IMG/VR virus record: IMGVR_UViG_2698536647_000003
Location: 1 to 8,752 of that record
Direction: 5' to 3' (one strand)
Source of the DNA: a virus
Taxonomy: Duplodnaviria; Heunggongvirae; Uroviricota; Caudoviricetes
Length of the DNA stretch: 8,752 bases
Part shown: one piece after another, positions 1,310-7,011 of the stretch
Numbering within the stretch: the stretch's first letter is position 1
How the letters are laid out: each line of letters starts with the position of its first letter
Program-made: the position numbers and the translations under genes
The notes under the pieces: model-generated
Databases searched by the model: none
What the model was told of the DNA's origin: nothing
What the model saw: the letters and a program-made list of their open reading frames with translations, nothing else

Positions 1310-1543
1310 ATGAAACTCGCTCTAATTATGCTGCCATTATGTCTGTCCCTCACTGCATGTGGTAATGGTTTAAATACCGGTAAACCAAATTCCGGTGTCA
1401 TTCCAAAACCTTTGGATCGAGATGGTAACGGTTCTTTAATTTATGATACCGAAAACCTTCCAATGACGGGGCAGTGGTGTCACGAGATTGATCACGAATA
1501 CCGACGAATCGGTAGCCCTTCTAACTGTGTTATTGACTACTAA
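1310..1543 (+). CDS. Small predicted outer-membrane lipoprotein (77 aa), moron convergent with J
   Basis: ORF-track ORF with AAGGAG at 1299..1304, 5 nt before the ATG. N-terminus MKLALIMLPLCLSLTAC has a charged n-region, hydrophobic core and lipobox L-T-A-C (Gly at +2). AT-rich relative to flanking tail genes. A perfect hairpin terminator begins 2 nt after the stop. Confidence 0.6.
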   Translation: MKLALIMLPLCLSLTACGNGLNTGKPNSGVIPKPLDRDGNGSLIYDTENLPMTGQWCHEIDHEYRRIGSPSNCVIDY

Positions 1544-4500: not shown

Positions 4501-5465
4501 ACCATCTGATCACAATACTGGGCAACCTGATAAAGCGTCCATTTATCAATATTCGCAGCGGTCAAACGGTGCCCGAGGCCGAACCGGTCAGAAACAACCA
4601 GATCGTAAAAAATCCACGCAGGGTTATCCGTCCATGCCCACTTAAACGCACCGGTCCATGTACCGCTATAAGTGCGGGTTTCAGGGTCGTAGGTATCTGG
4701 AACGCGGATAACACGGCCGCGGGGCTCGCAGGAGATCTGCGGGATAGAGCCGTTAAACTGACTTGAATCGAATTCGATGTAGAGTAGCGCTGTGTTTGGA
4801 TATCGTAACTTGGCGTCAATCACCTCGGTGAAGCTCTGCAGCGTCATCGTGTCGCCGATCTTCGCGCTGTTGGCATCAGAGGTAATCTTACGCAGACGTA
4901 TTGTCCAGGTGCTGCCAGCTTGCGGTAAATCGATACGGTGGCTGCGCTCATAACCAGACGTCGTTTTGCCGGTCACGCTGGTATTGAGTACCGTCTGCCA
5001 TGTGCCGCCGTCCGTCTGCAGGTCAATCGCATAATTGACCGAGTAACCCACCAGATCTCCGTCGTCTTCCTGTTTGAAAAGCGAGGGCCATTTCAGACGC
5101 AGACGAACTGCTGAAAGCTGCGTATTGGTAAACGTGCGCGTCCAGGCTGTAGCGCTTGATACCTCAGTTCCCACGCTGATTTCGTTTTCGGTACCGGGAA
5201 TACCCTGAATATATTTTTGAGCCTGCGTCCCCGCGCGAAACTCCCACGTCACGCCGCTGAAGTTTTGGGAACCGTCGGCATTCTCCAGCGCCGTTCCGTC
5301 CAGGTAGATATCTTTGCCGGTTAGCTGCCCTGCGAACTCCCCTTCGCCAAGCGCAACGAGGATTTTTGCCTTCGCTACAGATTGCAGATCATCAGGCTGT
5401 TCGGTAGGAGTTCGTGAACTGGATTTGCCGCCTTTGCGCCCCTTTAATACTTTCTCTGTAGCCAT
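1575..5465 (-). CDS. J: Host specificity protein J (central tail fibre / tail tip), 1296 aa
   Basis: Single 3891-nt ORF. The N-terminal region (KGGKSSSRTPTEQPDDLQS...) and the segment YYAAGMGIGVENTPSGMQSQVIFLADRFAV... resemble lambda gpJ as I recall it. It sits after M-L-K-I in lambda order. Start ATG 5465 has only a weak GGA-type Shine-Dalgarno. Confidence 0.93.
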   Translation of the reverse strand: MATEKVLKGRKGGKSSSRTPTEQPDDLQSVAKAKILVALGEGEFAGQLTGKDIYLDGTALENADGSQNFSGVTWEFRAGTQAQKYIQGIPGTENEISVGTEVSSATAWTRTFTNTQLSAVRLRLKWPSLFKQEDDGDLVGYSVNYAIDLQTDGGTWQTVLNTSVTGKTTSGYERSHRIDLPQAGSTWTIRLRKITSDANSAKIGDTMTLQSFTEVIDAKLRYPNTALLYIEFDSSQFNGSIPQISCEPRGRVIRVPDTYDPETRTYSGTWTGAFKWAWTDNPAWIFYDLVVSDRFGLGHRLTAANIDKWTLYQVAQYCDQMVPDGKGGNGTEPRYTCNVYIQDRNDAYTVLRDFAAIFRGMTYWGGDQIVALADMPRDVDYSYTRANVVGGRFTYSSSTTKTRYTTALVSWSDPGNAYADAMEPVFEQALVARYGFNQLEMTAIGCTRQSEANRKGRWGILTNNKDRVVSFDVGLDGNIPQPGYIIAVADELLSGKVMGGRISAVNGRVIKLDRVADAAPGDRLILNLPSGASQSRTIQAVNGESVTVTTAYSETPQAEAVWVVESDELYAQQYRVVSVSDNNDGTFSITGAWHDPDKYARIDTGAIIDQRPVSVIPPGNQSPPANIVISSFSVVQQNISVETMRVSWYQAQNAIAYEAQWRRNDGNWVNVPRSSTTSFDVPGIYAGRYLVRVRAINAAEISSGWGYSEEKTLTGKVGNPPKPVGFIASENVVFGIELNWGFPANTDDTLKTEIQYSLTGTEDDAMLLADVPYPQRKYQQMGLKAGQIFWYRAQLVDRSGNESGYTEWVRGQASIDVSDITDVILEDMKGSDTFKDLIENAVDSNEKIAGMANDIKQANDELEQQAKDIAKNAQDVGKVQTSVNELSSTVGNVSSSLSQLEQTVATADTALGQRIDNISVSMDGMTGGVKNSAIAIIQANLAQVATRKTLSASVAGNSANLDRIDEVIVNDREATARSLLSLQTDVNGNKASINSLNQTFSDYQQAMATQVNSITATVNGHTSAITTNAQAIANVNGDLSAMYNIKVGVSSNGQYYAAGMGIGVENTPSGMQSQVIFLADRFAVTTAAGNSVALPFVIQNGQTFIRASFIQDGTIENAKIGNYIQSNNYAAGSAGWKLNKAGDAEFNNVTVRGVVYASGGRFTGEIQATSGKFKGTVEAQSFIGDIANMHTGTDVSRSSDGLLEKVITYTDSSSSGHARHVCVIANVKGNGAGLININGNESGSSVQDMERLIMHSAVVTGPNVTVRIKVSAQNNRGASIYSPTVIVSHGSGSFTG

Positions 5466-5476
5466 ATCGCGTCCAT

Positions 5477-5499
5477 AAAAAAAGCCACCCGAAGGCGGC
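5477..5499 (-). terminator. Intrinsic terminator on the minus strand, ending 11 nt upstream of the J start codon
   Basis: Minus-strand RNA reads GCCGCC-UUCG-GGUGGC (6-bp stem with one G.U, UUCG tetraloop) followed by seven U (plus 5477..5483 is A7). Confidence 0.6.
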
Positions 5500-5631
5500 T
5501 ACTGTTTAAATATCAGGCTGTTGGTAACAGGAATCCCTGGTTAATGTGTAAGCTCAGCCCGCCAGTGGTAGGCCTCTGGCGTTAACTGACCGAGGGATGG
5601 CTGAAGTACCCGGTTAAAATGGAGTAATAAG

Positions 5632-5847
5632 ATGATCGAAGAAAAGTTCGTGGATTTTAGATTTACTCTTGACGAAAATATTCCTAGAGAAATCGCTTTA
5701 GAAATTGTGGCTCTAAGACAAGTTACAATGGTATTAACAGCAGCATTGCCAGTAGATACAAGGCAACAAGTTATTGAAATCCTATCAAAGACAAACTCAC
5801 CACAAATTCAAGACATCGTCAAAAATATGAAGCTTATTGACGCCTAA
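5632..5847 (+). CDS. Hypothetical 71-aa protein in the I-J insertion (plus strand)
   Basis: ORF-track ORF with GGAG at 5621..5624, 7 nt before the ATG. AT-rich. Its 3' end overlaps the 3' end of the minus-strand 49-aa ORF by about 50 nt, so at most one of the two may be real. No recognisable motif. Confidence 0.35.
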   Translation: MIEEKFVDFRFTLDENIPREIALEIVALRQVTMVLTAALPVDTRQQVIEILSKTNSPQIQDIVKNMKLIDA

Positions 5848-5946
5848 TGTCATTGAAGCATCGTACTCTACGGTCTCATGCGGGACCGTTTCATTAACTT
5901 CAGATGTTTCATTTTCAGTTTTTTCTACTCGTGACTCAAAAGACAT
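5797..5946 (-). CDS. Hypothetical small acidic protein (49 aa) immediately downstream of I
   Basis: Hand translation: MSFESRVEKTENETSEVNETVPHETVEYDASMTLGVNKLHIFDDVLNLW (11 Asp/Glu against 3 Arg/Lys). AAGGAG at 5958..5953 sits 6 nt before ATG 5946 and 8 nt after the I stop. Below the ORF track's apparent length cut-off. Confidence 0.35.
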   Translation of the reverse strand: MSFESRVEKTENETSEVNETVPHETVEYDASMTLGVNKLHIFDDVLNLW

Positions 5947-5966
5947 ACACATCTCCTTAACTTAGC

Positions 5967-6554
5967 TTACTGCTGATCTTCGACATATATCCCGGCAGAA
6001 ATAATCGCTCCGCCGATTCGACGCTTACCATAAAGCAGAGGCACTGGGTAGCCTTGCGCTGCAGTGTTGGTTACCCCGCCAAACGCATACGATGCACGGT
6101 TATCTGCGCTTTGTTTGCTGGCCAGCCCTGTAGCCTGAGGGGATAACATCTGAACTACCCCCCCCAGCGTTATGGACGCACCAGCAGCAAACATCATATT
6201 GCTGGCAGCTATACTCAGACCTGGCATCCAGATCGATGCAATCACTAATACTGCGCCCAGGATAGTTTGAATCAAACCGGCTTTTTTACTCCCGATGATT
6301 ACCGGAACAATGCGAATAACCTCGCCGGTAATCGGGAAGCCAAGGTCATCCACACCGATGTTTTTTTTACCCTTAAACACGGAGTATGTGAGCCCACGGC
6401 GTTGGCTGGAAATCATAAACTGCTCAAATCCAGGAATGGTTTTTGCGAGTGCAACGCCTGCTTCGCTTACGCGGGATATCAGACGGTAGTGAACTTTGCC
6501 AAACGTTTTTCCAAGAACACTGCCTAATTCAATTCGACTCATGACCTCTTGCAT
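5967..6554 (-). CDS. I: Tail assembly protein I (ubiquitin-like N-terminal domain, hydrophobic C-terminal region)
   Basis: Resembles lambda gpI as I recall it (e.g. ...GYPVPLLYG... near the C-terminus, Gly/Ala-rich hydrophobic stretch). I trimmed the ORF-track start (6641) to ATG 6554, which follows a GGGGGGA run by 4 nt and lies downstream of the 6570..6591 terminator. An in-frame ATG at 6542 is an alternative. Confidence 0.85.
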   Translation of the reverse strand: MQEVMSRIELGSVLGKTFGKVHYRLISRVSEAGVALAKTIPGFEQFMISSQRRGLTYSVFKGKKNIGVDDLGFPITGEVIRIVPVIIGSKKAGLIQTILGAVLVIASIWMPGLSIAASNMMFAAGASITLGGVVQMLSPQATGLASKQSADNRASYAFGGVTNTAAQGYPVPLLYGKRRIGGAIISAGIYVEDQQ

Positions 6555-6569
6555 ATAATCCCCCCACGT

Positions 6570-6591
6570 AAAAAAACCGCCGAAGCGGTTT
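6570..6591 (-). terminator. Intrinsic terminator on the minus strand after the K-I lipoprotein gene
   Basis: Minus-strand RNA reads AAACCGC-UUCG-GCGGUUU followed by a U-run (plus 6570..6576 is A7). Lies between the lipoprotein stop (6616) and the I start (6554). Confidence 0.65.
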
Positions 6592-6615
6592 AATTTGGTT
6601 GATTTATTTAGGTGT

Positions 6616-7011
6616 TTATTTATTAAAATGTTTCTTTTCAATGCTCATTGCTTGATTAAAGAAATTTGTAGCATTAATTACCGCCCTTTCACAATCCTTC
6701 TGCCCATAATGTCGATGGCATTGGAATTCAGCATTTATTGCCGTATCGCCGGACTGTTTAACCTTAGATGCCCGTCCTGCAAGTTGCCTTGTATCAATAG
6801 GTGGGAATGTTGTTATAAATGTATCGTTAGCTGATTCTACTCTCATTTTTGTTGCAAACTCCAAATGCTGAGGAACCTTCGACCAAAGATAACTACATTC
6901 AGCCTCTGATGAACATGTGACAGGCTTAGTATCTAATACCGGCATTGGCCTATTATCAGCACATCCAGCGGTGGCAAGTACCACAAGACCAGAGAACAAT
7001 ATTTTTTTCAC
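6616..7011 (-). CDS. Cys-rich predicted outer-membrane lipoprotein (131 aa), moron between K and I
   Basis: ORF-track ORF starting at GTG 7011..7009 (no in-frame ATG nearby), with GGGAAG 7 nt upstream. N-terminus MKKILFSGLVVLATAGC fits a lipoprotein signal with Cys+1 and Ala at +2. The mature part has 4 further Cys. AT-rich; own terminator downstream. No homolog recognised. Confidence 0.6.
   Translation of the reverse strand: MKKILFSGLVVLATAGCADNRPMPVLDTKPVTCSSEAECSYLWSKVPQHLEFATKMRVESANDTFITTFPPIDTRQLAGRASKVKQSGDTAINAEFQCHRHYGQKDCERAVINATNFFNQAMSIEKKHFNK

What the first reader, a model, noticed from the sequence alone, without database searches (positions are those of the whole stretch)
5797..5946. 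Strongly acidic 49-aa ORF translationally coupled to the end of I
Its AAGGAG starts 8 nt after the I stop and sits 6 nt before the ATG, so it would be translated with the late operon. The product has 11 acidic against 3 basic residues. Small very acidic phage proteins are often DNA mimics or inhibitors of host defence (Ocr-like anti-restriction, some anti-CRISPRs). It could alternatively be a small assembly chaperone. This is a hypothesis from composition and context only.
Basis: inference. Interest (0 to 1): 0.5.

Follow-up and report, generated by a model that had tools for sequence, protein, structure and literature searches.

The report
Small late-operon ORF in moron cassette
The 49-codon acidic ORF after tail gene I is real and probably translated, but it is a diverged member of a variable small-ORF family in an accessory-gene cassette found in many lambda-like prophages, and nothing supports a DNA-mimic or anti-defence role.

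Summary
On the minus strand, AAGGAG (5958-5953) lies 8 nt after the stop of I and 6 nt before the ATG at 5946. The ORF runs to 5797 and has 11 acidic and 3 basic residues.

The ORF converges on a + strand 71-aa gene (5632-5847) and overlaps it by 51 nt. Codons 19-26 are the complement of that gene's terminator hairpin (5870-5889). The whole low-GC I-J insert is a two-gene "moron" cassette like HK97 gp22/gp23.

Relatives exist in Kosakonia-type prophages (59 aa), a post-Q locus (47 aa) and Salmonella phage SPN3UB (gp32, 68 aa, between M and L). More than 100 IMG/VR contigs carry a small forward ORF at the same spot. Most of these ORFs start MTLEQRVExLE (window: MSFESRVEKTE), and each is paired with a convergent reverse ORF.

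The start site, the open frame and the N-terminal codons show coding selection. The middle of the ORF is hypervariable. Net charge across the family runs from -8 (this copy, an outlier) to +4. AlphaFold2 predicts no fold (pLDDT 53), and no family model matches.

Translation with the late operon is therefore supported. A DNA-mimic or anti-defence role is not. The peptide's function is unknown, and it looks weakly constrained.

The parts
5953..5958 (-). Shine-Dalgarno AAGGAG of the small forward ORF. It lies 8 nt after the I stop (5967-5969) and 6 nt before the ATG.
   Evidence: unique in the window, 0.03 expected by chance. The TAAGGAGAT core is conserved in Kosakonia-type loci despite a neighbouring 12-nt indel.
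5797..5946 (-). The 49-aa forward ORF that is the subject of the finding. Codons 1-11 are a diverged MTLEQRVExLE-type motif. Codons 12-18 are low-complexity filler. Codons 19-26 are encoded by the hairpin. Codons 27-37 form a Y..LGVN-type C-terminal motif. Codons 38-49 are a read-through extension.
   Evidence: The exact protein occurs on 287 public contigs, where it is named 'hypothetical protein'. It is annotated in phage mEp506 but not by PGAP.
5914..5946 (-). N-terminal motif codons MSFESRVEKTE, with 6 of 11 residues identical to the family consensus MTLEQRVEALE.
5870..5889 (+). Hairpin ACGGTCTC-ATGC-GGGACCGT followed by TTCATT. It is the putative intrinsic terminator of the + strand 71-aa gene and lies inside the forward ORF.
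   Evidence: the + strand RNA segment folds at -21.3 kcal/mol (z = -4.0), against z = -1.5 for the - strand. The homologous hairpin plus U-run is present in Kosakonia, SPN3UB and L137 loci. One pair changes from A-T to G-C, a compensatory change.
5632..5847 (+). Reverse 'moron' gene of 71 aa (WP_053263845), with a predicted three-helix bundle. Its last 51 nt overlap the forward ORF.
   Evidence: homologues at 63-65% identity; phrog_6806, E = 1.6e-6; pLDDT 79.5; 67% identity to the L137 copy.
5473..5604 (+). Conserved non-coding block of about 130 nt. It is the presumed promoter and 5' leader of the reverse gene and is shared by cassettes whose ORFs are unrelated.
   Evidence: (86 of 106 cassettes, 71-95% identity).
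5476..5500 (-). Intrinsic terminator on the late-operon strand (AGCCGCCTTCGGGTGGC followed by eight T), immediately upstream of the J start at 5465. It marks the 3' end of the cassette.
   Evidence: The same element is annotated as a putative terminator in HK97 and is conserved in many cassettes.
5466..5966 (-). The whole two-gene cassette inserted between I and J. GC is 35-40% over the two ORFs (5600-5999), against 50-55% in the flanking tail genes.

Best explanation
**What it is.** The ORF is the 'forward' gene of a two-gene accessory (moron) cassette of the HK97 gp22/gp23 type, inserted between tail genes I and J.

**Proposed expression (inferred from orientation, not measured).**
- During lytic growth, the Q-antiterminated late transcript runs through the cassette.
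- Ribosomes start at AAGGAG-N6-ATG, 20 nt after the I stop.
- They translate 49 codons across the complement of the opposite gene's terminator hairpin and 51 nt into the antisense of that gene's 3' end.
- RNA polymerase then reads through the terminator at 5500-5476 into J.
- In the lysogen, the + strand 71-aa gene would be expressed instead, from the conserved 130-nt leader block, and terminated at the 5870-5889 hairpin. The two genes would therefore be expressed at different times.

**The peptide.** It is a diverged, shortened member of a family of small forward ORFs. These typically have an N-terminal heptad motif MTLEQRVExLE, a hypervariable middle, and a C-terminal ..Y...LG[VI]N motif.
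- In this copy only about 18 codons are free of constraints from the other strand.
- The last 12 residues exist only because a synonymous Leu codon in the opposite gene (CTT instead of TTA) removed the usual forward stop.
- The strong acidity is a lineage-specific by-product.
- I commit to this reading: a translated but weakly constrained small accessory peptide without a stable fold of its own, not a DNA mimic.

**Shown:** the anatomy, the homology of the cassette, the coding signatures in the family, and the non-conservation of charge.
**Inferred:** the timing of expression and the lack of a specific function.
For: **Anatomy:**

**Same site, different cargo.** HK97 carries gp22 ('moron product') and gp23 ('reverse moron product') at the same site, with a conserved 3' flank.

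**Relatives found through the reverse gene, not through the ORF itself.**
- Kosakonia-type loci have a 59-aa ORF with the same SD, ATG and N-terminus.
- They also show an in-frame 66-nt indel and the same hairpin.

**Coding tests in the Kosakonia lineage.**
- The forward frame is the only one of six without stops.
- pN/pS is 0.33-0.48, against 0.6-1.5 in the other five frames.
- The binomial P is 0.02-0.15.

**SPN3UB gp32/gp33** is the same arrangement between M and L.
- In codons 2-11, SPN3UB versus the Kosakonia loci shows 4-5 synonymous and 0-1 non-synonymous changes.
- Shifted frames give 0-1 synonymous and 4-7 non-synonymous.

**IMG/VR scans.**
- 118 loci have such ORFs of 38-129 aa after M or I, almost always converging on a reverse ORF.
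- In all 34 sequence groups the forward frame is the longest.
- A shuffled ORF body stays open with mean probability 0.03.

**A third close lineage (L137):** a 47-aa forward ORF and a reverse gene 67% identical to the window's, located after a Q gene.

**Charge** is not conserved.
**No fold** is predicted.
**No family hits**.
**Within the window lineage,** the frame is intact in all five protein variants on record.
Against: - There is no direct expression evidence for this ORF or any relative.
- PGAP does not call it.
- BLASTP finds no overall similarity between the 49-aa and 59-aa products. Homology therefore rests on position, the SD and start, 6 of 11 N-terminal residues and the C-terminal motif.
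- The window's N-terminal motif is degenerate. One variant (P0021) changes it further (S5T, E8D, K9E), which fits relaxed constraint.
- The pN/pS signal comes from essentially one deep split and is only marginally significant.
- The motif-based scan is biased towards preserved peptides. The block-anchored scan shows that 54 of 86 unique pairs do not begin exactly MTLE[QE]RVE (many of these begin with close variants of it).
- Frameshifted or truncated natural variants of SPN3UB gp32 exist (54 and 28 aa).
- No sigma-70 promoter was detected for the reverse gene, so lysogenic expression is assumed, not shown.
Confidence: 0.55

Rival explanations
1. The ORF is not a functional gene. The region is the 3' UTR and terminator of the + strand 71-aa gene. 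The open frame, with its SD and ATG, is a decaying remnant of an ancestral forward ORF. It may be translated incidentally, but the product has no role.
For: - PGAP omits it.
- No HMM hit.
- AlphaFold2 pLDDT is 53.
- Codons 19-49 are dictated by the opposite gene's hairpin and 3' end.
- The N-terminal motif is degenerate relative to the family and drifts further in variant P0021.
- The forward region diverges about 5 times faster than the reverse gene in the Kosakonia lineage: 19 changes in 162 nt against 5 in 219 nt.
- The C-terminal extension arose from a synonymous change in the other gene.
Against: - The SD and ATG are conserved next to an indel-ridden spacer.
- The frame is intact on more than 300 contigs and in all five protein variants.
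- An in-frame 66-nt length difference separates it from the Kosakonia copy.
- Family-wide, the ORF is maintained in 34 of 34 groups.
- Purifying selection acts in this frame in relatives.
Confidence: 0.2
2. The peptide acts on the tail tip. Family members look like miniature copies of the J central-fibre junction, a coiled coil followed by the A.Y.LNLG[VI] strand, and some also carry FAV..G.VFI..AFIQ. The peptide could co-assemble with J trimerisation, template it or modulate it.
For: - SPN3UB gp32 residues 22-50 hit J proteins by tblastn.
- A 66-aa member passes the Pfam gathering score for PF09327 Phage_Tail_Tip (26.6 bits against 22).
- Short matches to J segments have E = 6e-5 to 2e-3, and the motifs were located in J sequences.
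- The C-terminal Y...LG[VI]N motif is kept with varied codons, and lies outside the reverse ORF in L125 and L060.
- The gene is co-expressed with the tail-tip genes I and J.
Against: - The window copy lacks the FAV/FI motif and has only a weak, 2-residue-longer version of the Y..LGVN motif.
- The same cassette also sits after Q, far from the tail genes.
- The forward ORF is absent from most lambdoid phages, so it is not needed for assembly.
- Some members instead carry a snippet like the tape-measure C-terminus, or unrelated sequence. That fits mosaic recombination debris equally well.
Confidence: 0.12
3. The forward ORF and the reverse gene form a functional pair. The convergent overlap would couple them, either by antisense or transcriptional interference, or by the lytic-phase peptide neutralising the lysogen-expressed 71-aa protein.
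For: A convergent 3' overlap of 4-62 nt is present in almost every cassette, whatever the gene families involved. The reverse gene's terminator is always embedded in the forward ORF.
Against: Forward and reverse families assort independently. gp22-like forward ORFs pair with at least 7 different reverse genes, and the 71-aa family pairs with at least 12 different forward ORFs. This argues against a specific protein-protein partnership. Overlap could simply reflect compaction. No PADLOC hit.
Confidence: 0.1
4. The acidic peptide is a DNA mimic or an inhibitor of host defence (Ocr-like or ArdA-like anti-restriction, or an acidic anti-CRISPR).
For: Composition only: 11 acidic against 3 basic residues, net charge -8.
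Against: - Acidity is not conserved in homologues, which range from -3 to +4.
- No confident fold is predicted.
- No match to any Pfam, PHROG, NCBIfam or PADLOC model at E <= 1.
- Several of the acidic residues fall in segments encoded by the opposite gene's hairpin and 3' end.
- The late tail-operon position is the wrong timing for a protein that must act when DNA enters the cell.
Confidence: 0.03

Closest known systems
HK97 gp22 / gp23 ('moron product' / 'reverse moron product', NC_002167)
   Same: - Same insertion site between I and J.
- Same layout: a forward ORF with its own SD just after I, a convergent overlapping reverse ORF, the conserved block of about 130 nt, and a terminator just before J.
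- gp22 belongs to phrog_11851, whose other members begin with MTLEQRVE.
   Different: The ORF sequences are unrelated to the window's. gp22 is 120 aa and looks like a real domain protein. gp23 (86 aa) is not detectably related to the 71-aa protein. Neither HK97 gene has a known function.
Salmonella phage SPN3UB gp32 / gp33 (phrog_9873 / phrog_6806)
   Same: The same two-gene convergent cassette with the same 3' block. gp33 is a distant relative of the window's 71-aa protein: 32% identity, and both hit phrog_6806. gp32 shares the SD, ATG and N-terminal motif.
   Different: The cassette sits between M and L, not between I and J. gp32 is 68 aa, has net charge +1, and contains a fragment like J's tail-tip domain that the window ORF lacks.
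Kosakonia-type prophage 59-aa ORF and the L137 47-aa ORF (unnamed)
   Same: These are the closest true relatives. The reverse gene is 63-67% identical. They share the SD, ATG, N-terminal motif, hairpin and C-terminal ..Y....GVN end.
   Different: The middle segment differs completely in length and sequence (7, 16 and 27 residues). Net charge is -1 to -3. They stop at GVN, where the window copy reads on for 12 codons. The L137 cassette sits after the Q antiterminator gene.
HK97 gp15 moron (superinfection exclusion; Cumby et al., reviewed in PMC3594210)
   Same: A small accessory gene inserted in the tail operon of an HK97-like phage, with atypical base composition.
   Different: gp15 is an inner-membrane protein expressed from the prophage with its own promoter (PMC3594210). 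The window ORF has no membrane segment and no detectable promoter.
Ocr / ArdA DNA-mimic anti-restriction proteins
   Same: Only the excess of acidic residues.
   Different: From general knowledge, those are folded dimers of at least 116 aa that display a conserved charge pattern, and Ocr is expressed first on entry. Here the protein is 49 aa with no predicted fold, the charge is not conserved, and expression is late.

Membership tests
DNA-mimic anti-restriction / acidic anti-CRISPR proteins | Sequence or profile similarity to a known family (Ocr, ArdA, known Acr families) | tested here: not met
   No Pfam, NCBIfam, PHROG or PADLOC family at E <= 1. No dedicated anti-defence library was available.
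DNA-mimic anti-restriction / acidic anti-CRISPR proteins | Stable fold displaying an ordered array of carboxylates | tested here: not met
   AlphaFold2 with the available 4-sequence alignment gives mean pLDDT 53.1 and pTM 0.17. Residues 1-29 have no secondary structure. A shallow alignment limits the weight of this result.
DNA-mimic anti-restriction / acidic anti-CRISPR proteins | Negative charge conserved among homologues | tested here: not met
   Net charge is -8 in the window. The closest relatives have -1, -2 and -3, and the family ranges up to +4.
DNA-mimic anti-restriction / acidic anti-CRISPR proteins | Binding to, or inhibition of, a defence enzyme | not testable with these tools
   Needs biochemistry or plating assays.
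Moron (accessory insert in a phage operon, sensu Juhala/Hendrix) | Extra DNA between two genes that are adjacent in related phages | tested here: met
   About 500 bp lie between I and J. HK97 has different cargo at the same junction. The other HK/mEp phages listed in the best rows match only the I end of the query and not the cassette. I and J are adjacent in lambda (general knowledge).
Moron (accessory insert in a phage operon, sensu Juhala/Hendrix) | Base composition different from the neighbouring genes | tested here: met
   GC is 0.355-0.395 across 5600-5999, against 0.50-0.555 in the flanking I and J genes.
Moron (accessory insert in a phage operon, sensu Juhala/Hendrix) | Own promoter and terminator | tested here: inconclusive
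   Terminators are present: 5500-5483 on the - strand and the hairpin at 5870-5889 on the + strand. No sigma-70-like promoter was found for either gene by the consensus scan.
Moron (accessory insert in a phage operon, sensu Juhala/Hendrix) | Expression from the repressed prophage | not testable with these tools
   Needs RNA-seq of a lysogen.
MTLEQRVExLE-type forward small ORFs (phrog_9873 / phrog_38241 and relatives) | Position: own SD and ATG 13-35 nt after the stop of tail gene M or I, in late-operon orientation | tested here: met
   The ATG is 20 nt after the I stop. Compare.
MTLEQRVExLE-type forward small ORFs (phrog_9873 / phrog_38241 and relatives) | N-terminal motif or profile match | tested here: inconclusive
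   MSFESRVEKTE shares 6 of 11 residues (M1, E4, R6, V7, E8, E11), and the DNA aligns with the Kosakonia copy. However, no PHROG hit appears at E <= 1 and BLASTP against the 59-aa relative finds nothing.
MTLEQRVExLE-type forward small ORFs (phrog_9873 / phrog_38241 and relatives) | 3' end converges on and overlaps a reverse-strand small ORF whose terminator hairpin lies inside the forward ORF | tested here: met
   51-nt overlap with the ORF at 5632-5847, and the hairpin at 5870-5889.
MTLEQRVExLE-type forward small ORFs (phrog_9873 / phrog_38241 and relatives) | Cassette ends in the conserved block of about 130 nt plus a terminator before the next tail gene | tested here: met
   Window 5473-5604. 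The block is 71-95% identical in 86 of 106 cassettes.
DUF2594 / YecF family (label given to the neighbouring 71-aa gene in mEp506) | Profile similarity to PF10769 / E. coli YecF | tested here: not met
   No Pfam hit at E <= 1. hhalign of the 7-sequence alignment against YecF gives probability 0.55% and E = 0.1. Foldseek of the model against PDB and BFVD finds nothing at E <= 0.001. AFDB was not available.

The most novel reading that the evidence does not exclude
The ORF would be one face of an undescribed cassette platform in enterobacterial lambdoid prophages.

**The platform.** A conserved leader of about 130 nt plus a terminator, and often a conserved 5' module (SD plus MTLEQRVExLE codons), bracket a hypervariable pair of convergent, overlapping small genes. 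The platform occupies several late-operon junctions: M/L, I/J and post-Q.

**The two genes.** The forward peptides, built from snippets of J and tape-measure proteins, would be made in the lytic phase. The reverse small helical proteins would be made in the lysogen. Both would be fast-evolving players in phage-phage or phage-host conflict, for example superinfection exclusion acting on incoming tails. The shared leader would be a common regulatory RNA.
Probability: 0.2. Interest if true: 0.6.

Novelty: new member of a known kind. Interest (0 to 1): 0.35.

Why it matters
Taken alone, the ORF is a minor, probably translated accessory peptide, and the DNA-mimic idea can be set aside.

The context is more useful. 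The I-J insert is one instance of a recurrent two-gene cassette with conserved flanks and highly variable cargo. The best-known example, HK97 gp22/gp23, is more than 20 years old and still has no known function.

Recognising the shared architecture gives a way to annotate hundreds of 'hypothetical' small genes in Salmonella, Enterobacter, Klebsiella-type and E. coli prophages. That architecture is a forward ORF, an embedded terminator, a reverse gene, a conserved leader and a late-strand terminator.

It also points to a tractable system, phage mEp506 on E. coli MG1655, for testing what such cassettes do.

Tried and rejected
- **Protein searches with the 49-aa ORF.** The word-indexed search of 5.8 billion proteins found only a 98% identical copy. 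tblastn on phages found only mEp506. A full HMMER scan of 1.84 billion representatives added one 47-aa relative and several false coiled-coil hits.
- **Pairwise comparison.** BLASTP of the 49-aa against the 59-aa relative found no alignment. Homology had to be argued from DNA alignment and context.
- **Family libraries.** Pfam, PHROGs, NCBIfam and PADLOC gave nothing for the ORF.
- **Structure.** The AlphaFold2 model is too poor for a fold search. A search for DNA-mimic folds would therefore be meaningless and was not run.
- **The 71-aa neighbour.** Foldseek against PDB and BFVD found nothing significant. AFDB was unavailable. The 'DUF2594' label from mEp506 was not reproduced.
- **Other scans.** The search for related loci in genome contigs found nothing. 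Rfam found nothing in the cassette. A fixed-spacing pattern for the conserved block found nothing and had to be rewritten with a variable gap.
- **Leads considered and rejected.** CTG-N9-CAG in the block is not a LexA box, because the spacing is one base short of CTG-N10-CAG. CGCCAGTGGTA in the block resembles a lambda operator half-site, but I took this as coincidence. Both judgements rest on general knowledge.
- **Literature.** I found no paper on gp22/gp23 function or on mEp506. STMMW_26411 and STMMW_20121 in PMC7067206 are prophage genes with transcription signatures taken to indicate accessory or regulatory roles; STMMW_20121 is encoded antisense to the lytic genes. I could not link either to this cassette.
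- **Blocked look-up.** The DNA of variant P0021 could not be fetched.
Full report
**1. The observation**

On the minus strand the sequence reads GATCAGCAG-TAA (I stop, 5969-5967), GCTAAGTT, AAGGAG (5958-5953), ATGTGT, ATG (5946). It then runs 49 codons to the TGA at 5799-5797.

The product is MSFESRVEKTENETSEVNETVPHETVEYDASMTLGVNKLHIFDDVLNLW. It has 11 acidic and 3 basic residues. AAGGAG-N6-ATG occurs once in the window on both strands, against 0.03 expected from shuffles. The description is correct.

- An in-frame ATG at 5952 abuts the SD, which is why ORF listing reports 51 aa.
- A + strand ORF of 71 aa (5632-5847, GGAG 7 nt upstream) converges on the ORF and overlaps its last 51 nt.
- A hairpin at 5870-5889 lies inside the ORF.
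- A strong minus-strand terminator sits at 5500-5483, just before the J start at 5465.

**2. The surroundings**

The window is the tail operon of an HK97-like lambdoid prophage on the minus strand: L, K, I, J.

The closest records are phage mEp506 (97% identity) and four of 5426 complete E. coli genomes.
- mEp506 annotates both small ORFs: a 49-aa 'hypothetical protein' and a 71-aa 'DUF2594 containing protein'.
- PGAP annotates only the 71-aa gene.
- The exact 49-aa protein is present on 287 public contigs as 'hypothetical protein'.

HK97 has different cargo at the same I/J junction: gp22 ('moron product', 120 aa, forward) and gp23 ('reverse moron product', 86 aa). The last 150 nt or so before J are nearly identical to the window.

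GC falls to 0.355-0.395 across 5600-5999, against 0.50-0.555 in I and J. The insert therefore has the classical signature of a moron.

**3. Is the frame kept in relatives?**

Direct searches with the 49-aa sequence found only near-identical copies. The neighbouring 71-aa protein has homologues at 63-65% identity in Kosakonia-type prophages.

In every such locus a 59-aa ORF follows I on the late strand and overlaps the reverse gene by 18 nt. The DNA alignment shows:
- a conserved TAAGGAGAT...ATG next to a 12-nt indel;
- similar first codons (MSFESRVEKTE against MTLEQRVETLE);
- a length difference of exactly 66 nt, which is in frame;
- a conserved hairpin;
- a shared ..Y....GVN end.

Within the Kosakonia lineage, the ORF's frame is the only one of six without stops. 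Its pN/pS is 0.33-0.48, against 0.6-1.5 in the other five frames. The binomial P is 0.02-0.15, and the signal comes from essentially one deep split. The region diverges about five times faster than the reverse gene, with 19 changes in 162 nt against 5 in 219 nt.

**4. A wider family**

A weak tblastn hit of the 71-aa protein led to Salmonella phage SPN3UB. There, gp32 (68 aa, forward, MTLEQRVEALEK...) and gp33 (71 aa, reverse) form the same convergent pair, but between M and L. Both reverse proteins hit phrog_6806, and gp32 is phrog_9873.

In codons 2-11, SPN3UB and the Kosakonia loci differ by 4-5 synonymous and 0-1 non-synonymous changes. Shifted frames give the opposite pattern. These loci were found through the other gene, so this comparison is not biased by how they were collected.

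Scanning IMG/VR for the back-translated motif gave 118 loci.
- Nearly all are 38-129-aa ORFs placed 13-35 nt after M or I.
- They are hypervariable after residue 11.
- Almost all converge on a reverse ORF of 65-119 aa from several families.
- In all 34 sequence groups the forward frame is the longest. Shuffled ORF bodies stay open with mean probability 0.03.

The exhaustive HMMER search added a 47-aa member whose reverse partner is 67% identical to the window's. That cassette sits after a Q antiterminator gene and a terminator.

A scan anchored on the conserved 3' block, which is independent of the forward ORF, returned at least 119 loci and 86 unique ORF pairs.
- 32 begin exactly MTLE[QE]RVE.
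- Many others begin with variants, such as MTLEERIEALE, MSLDNKVELLN and MDLAKRVDTQR.
- Some, like HK97 gp22, lack the motif altogether.

The window's MSFESRVEKTE lies at the diverged edge of this range.

**5. What shapes the 49 residues**

- **Codons 1-11:** the diverged N-terminal motif.
- **Codons 12-18 (NETSEVN):** low-complexity filler containing a short duplication (AATGAAAC occurs twice).
- **Codons 19-26 (ETVPHETV):** the complement of the hairpin ACGGTCTC-ATGC-GGGACCGT.
- **Codons 27-37 (EYDASMTLGVN):** correspond to the family's C-terminal motif. That motif is kept with varied codons and lies outside the reverse ORF in L125 and L060.
- **Codons 38-49:** exist only because the reverse gene uses CTT rather than TTA for Leu, which removes the TAA that ends the relatives at ...GVN.

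The hairpin folds better as + strand RNA (8 bp, segment z = -4.0) than as - strand RNA (z = -1.5). In the Kosakonia, SPN3UB and L137 copies it is followed by a U-run in the reverse gene's sense. One pair changes from A-T to G-C. It is therefore the terminator of the opposite gene. In relatives the same hairpin encodes 'KAARQK', which is where their basic residues come from.

Net charge across the family runs from +4 to -4, and the window, at -8, is the outlier.

**6. Structure and families**

AlphaFold2 on the ORF with the four available sequences gives pLDDT 53 and pTM 0.17. I ran no fold search on that model. Pfam, PHROGs, NCBIfam and PADLOC have no hit.

The 71-aa neighbour is predicted to be a three-helix bundle (pLDDT 79.5). 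It has no significant match in PDB or BFVD. The DUF2594/YecF label was not reproduced.

**7. Interpretation**

The data support translation of this ORF with the late operon. They identify it as the forward gene of an HK97 gp22/gp23-type cassette.

They do not support a DNA-mimic or anti-defence role. The charge is not conserved, there is no predicted fold, expression would be late, and half the sequence is dictated by the other strand.

I commit, at about 0.55, to a translated but weakly constrained accessory peptide. The main rival, at 0.2, is that it is a functionless remnant.

A tail-related role is possible, at about 0.12.
- SPN3UB gp32 and a 66-aa relative carry a fragment like J's Phage_Tail_Tip domain. 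The relative scores 26.6 bits against a gathering score of 22.
- Several members end in the J-like A.Y.LNLG[VI] strand.
- The window copy shows these motifs only faintly.

A specific partnership with the reverse gene is unlikely, because forward and reverse families assort independently.

**8. Beyond the finding**

The most interesting feature is the block of about 130 nt at 5473-5604. It is 71-95% identical in 86 of 106 cassettes, whatever their genes and whether L or J follows. It has a predicted nested-helix structure, but few pairs covary. It has no Rfam match.

Together with the late-strand terminator, this block defines a cassette platform found at M/L, I/J and post-Q junctions. The platform is rare in E. 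coli, in 13 of 5426 genomes. Its forward ORFs are common in Salmonella and Enterobacter.

Expression timing, promoter activity and function of either gene were not measured here. What is said about them is inference.

Noticed in passing
window 5473-5604 (+ strand sense); also L002 (HK97), L017 (SPN3UB), L019-L216: A non-coding block of about 130 nt lies between the reverse gene's start and the J-proximal terminator. It is 71-95% identical in 86 of 106 cassettes whose ORFs are unrelated.
- RNAalifold predicts nested helices TCAGCC[CGYCAGTG..CACTGGCG]..GGCTGA, with few covarying pairs.
- It contains a pseudo-SD AGGAGGG followed by a 5-6 codon mini-ORF (MADYL*; MAEVPG* in the window) just upstream of the reverse gene's SD.
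- It has no Rfam match, and the consensus scan finds no sigma-70 promoter.
   Followed up: partly
window 6616-7011 (-), terminator 6574-6591: A second low-GC insert lies between K and I. It encodes a 131-aa ORF with a lipoprotein-like N-terminus (MKKILFSGLVVLATAGC), which hits phrog_16082 (E = 8e-9, unknown function), and is followed by a bidirectional-looking hairpin. HK97 and mEp506 carry a different small gene at this junction (gp20, YebO family).
   Followed up: partly
window 1310-1543 (+): A 77-aa lipoprotein-like ORF (lipobox LTAC) lies downstream of J on the opposite strand. It matches phrog_12984 'lipoprotein' over its full length (E = 1e-56).
- It is not related to the Cor exclusion lipoprotein found at the equivalent place in a sister prophage.
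- In the near-identical E. coli locus L003, PGAP calls a 165-aa ORF spanning this ORF and the upstream 88-aa ORF. This hints at a frameshift difference or a miscall.
   Followed up: partly
L137 2435-3003: The same forward and reverse pair (47 aa and 72 aa; the reverse protein is 67% identical to the window's) sits just after a Q-type antiterminator gene. It is bracketed by two intrinsic terminators, so the cassette is not tied to the tail operon.
   Followed up: partly
L017 2652-2858, L134, L081, L072 and others: Forward small ORFs contain short stretches nearly identical to parts of large tail proteins. These include J's FAVxDGxVFIxxAFIQ and A.YxLNLG[IV]xRN segments and what appears to be a tape-measure C-terminus. 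They may be mosaic debris or mimics of tail proteins.
   Followed up: partly
L018 (phage PhiR5_1) 2522-3365: Between holin S and lysozyme R there is another forward gene (DUF1327) that converges on and overlaps a reverse gene (DUF1823). The reverse gene gave a weak tblastn hit to the 71-aa protein (E = 0.8). The same architecture may therefore recur in the lysis cassette.
   Followed up: no
L012 4413-7136: In one Logan contig the Kosakonia-type cassette is preceded by a 907-aa open frame rather than a 199-aa I gene. It is followed by a 511-aa J-like fragment. This suggests a rearranged or chimeric tail region.
   Followed up: no
window 6570-6611 (-): A weak sub-threshold Rfam match to isrK (17.3 bits against a gathering score of 50, E = 0.79) overlies the K/I-insert terminator hairpin. 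It is most likely chance.
   Followed up: no
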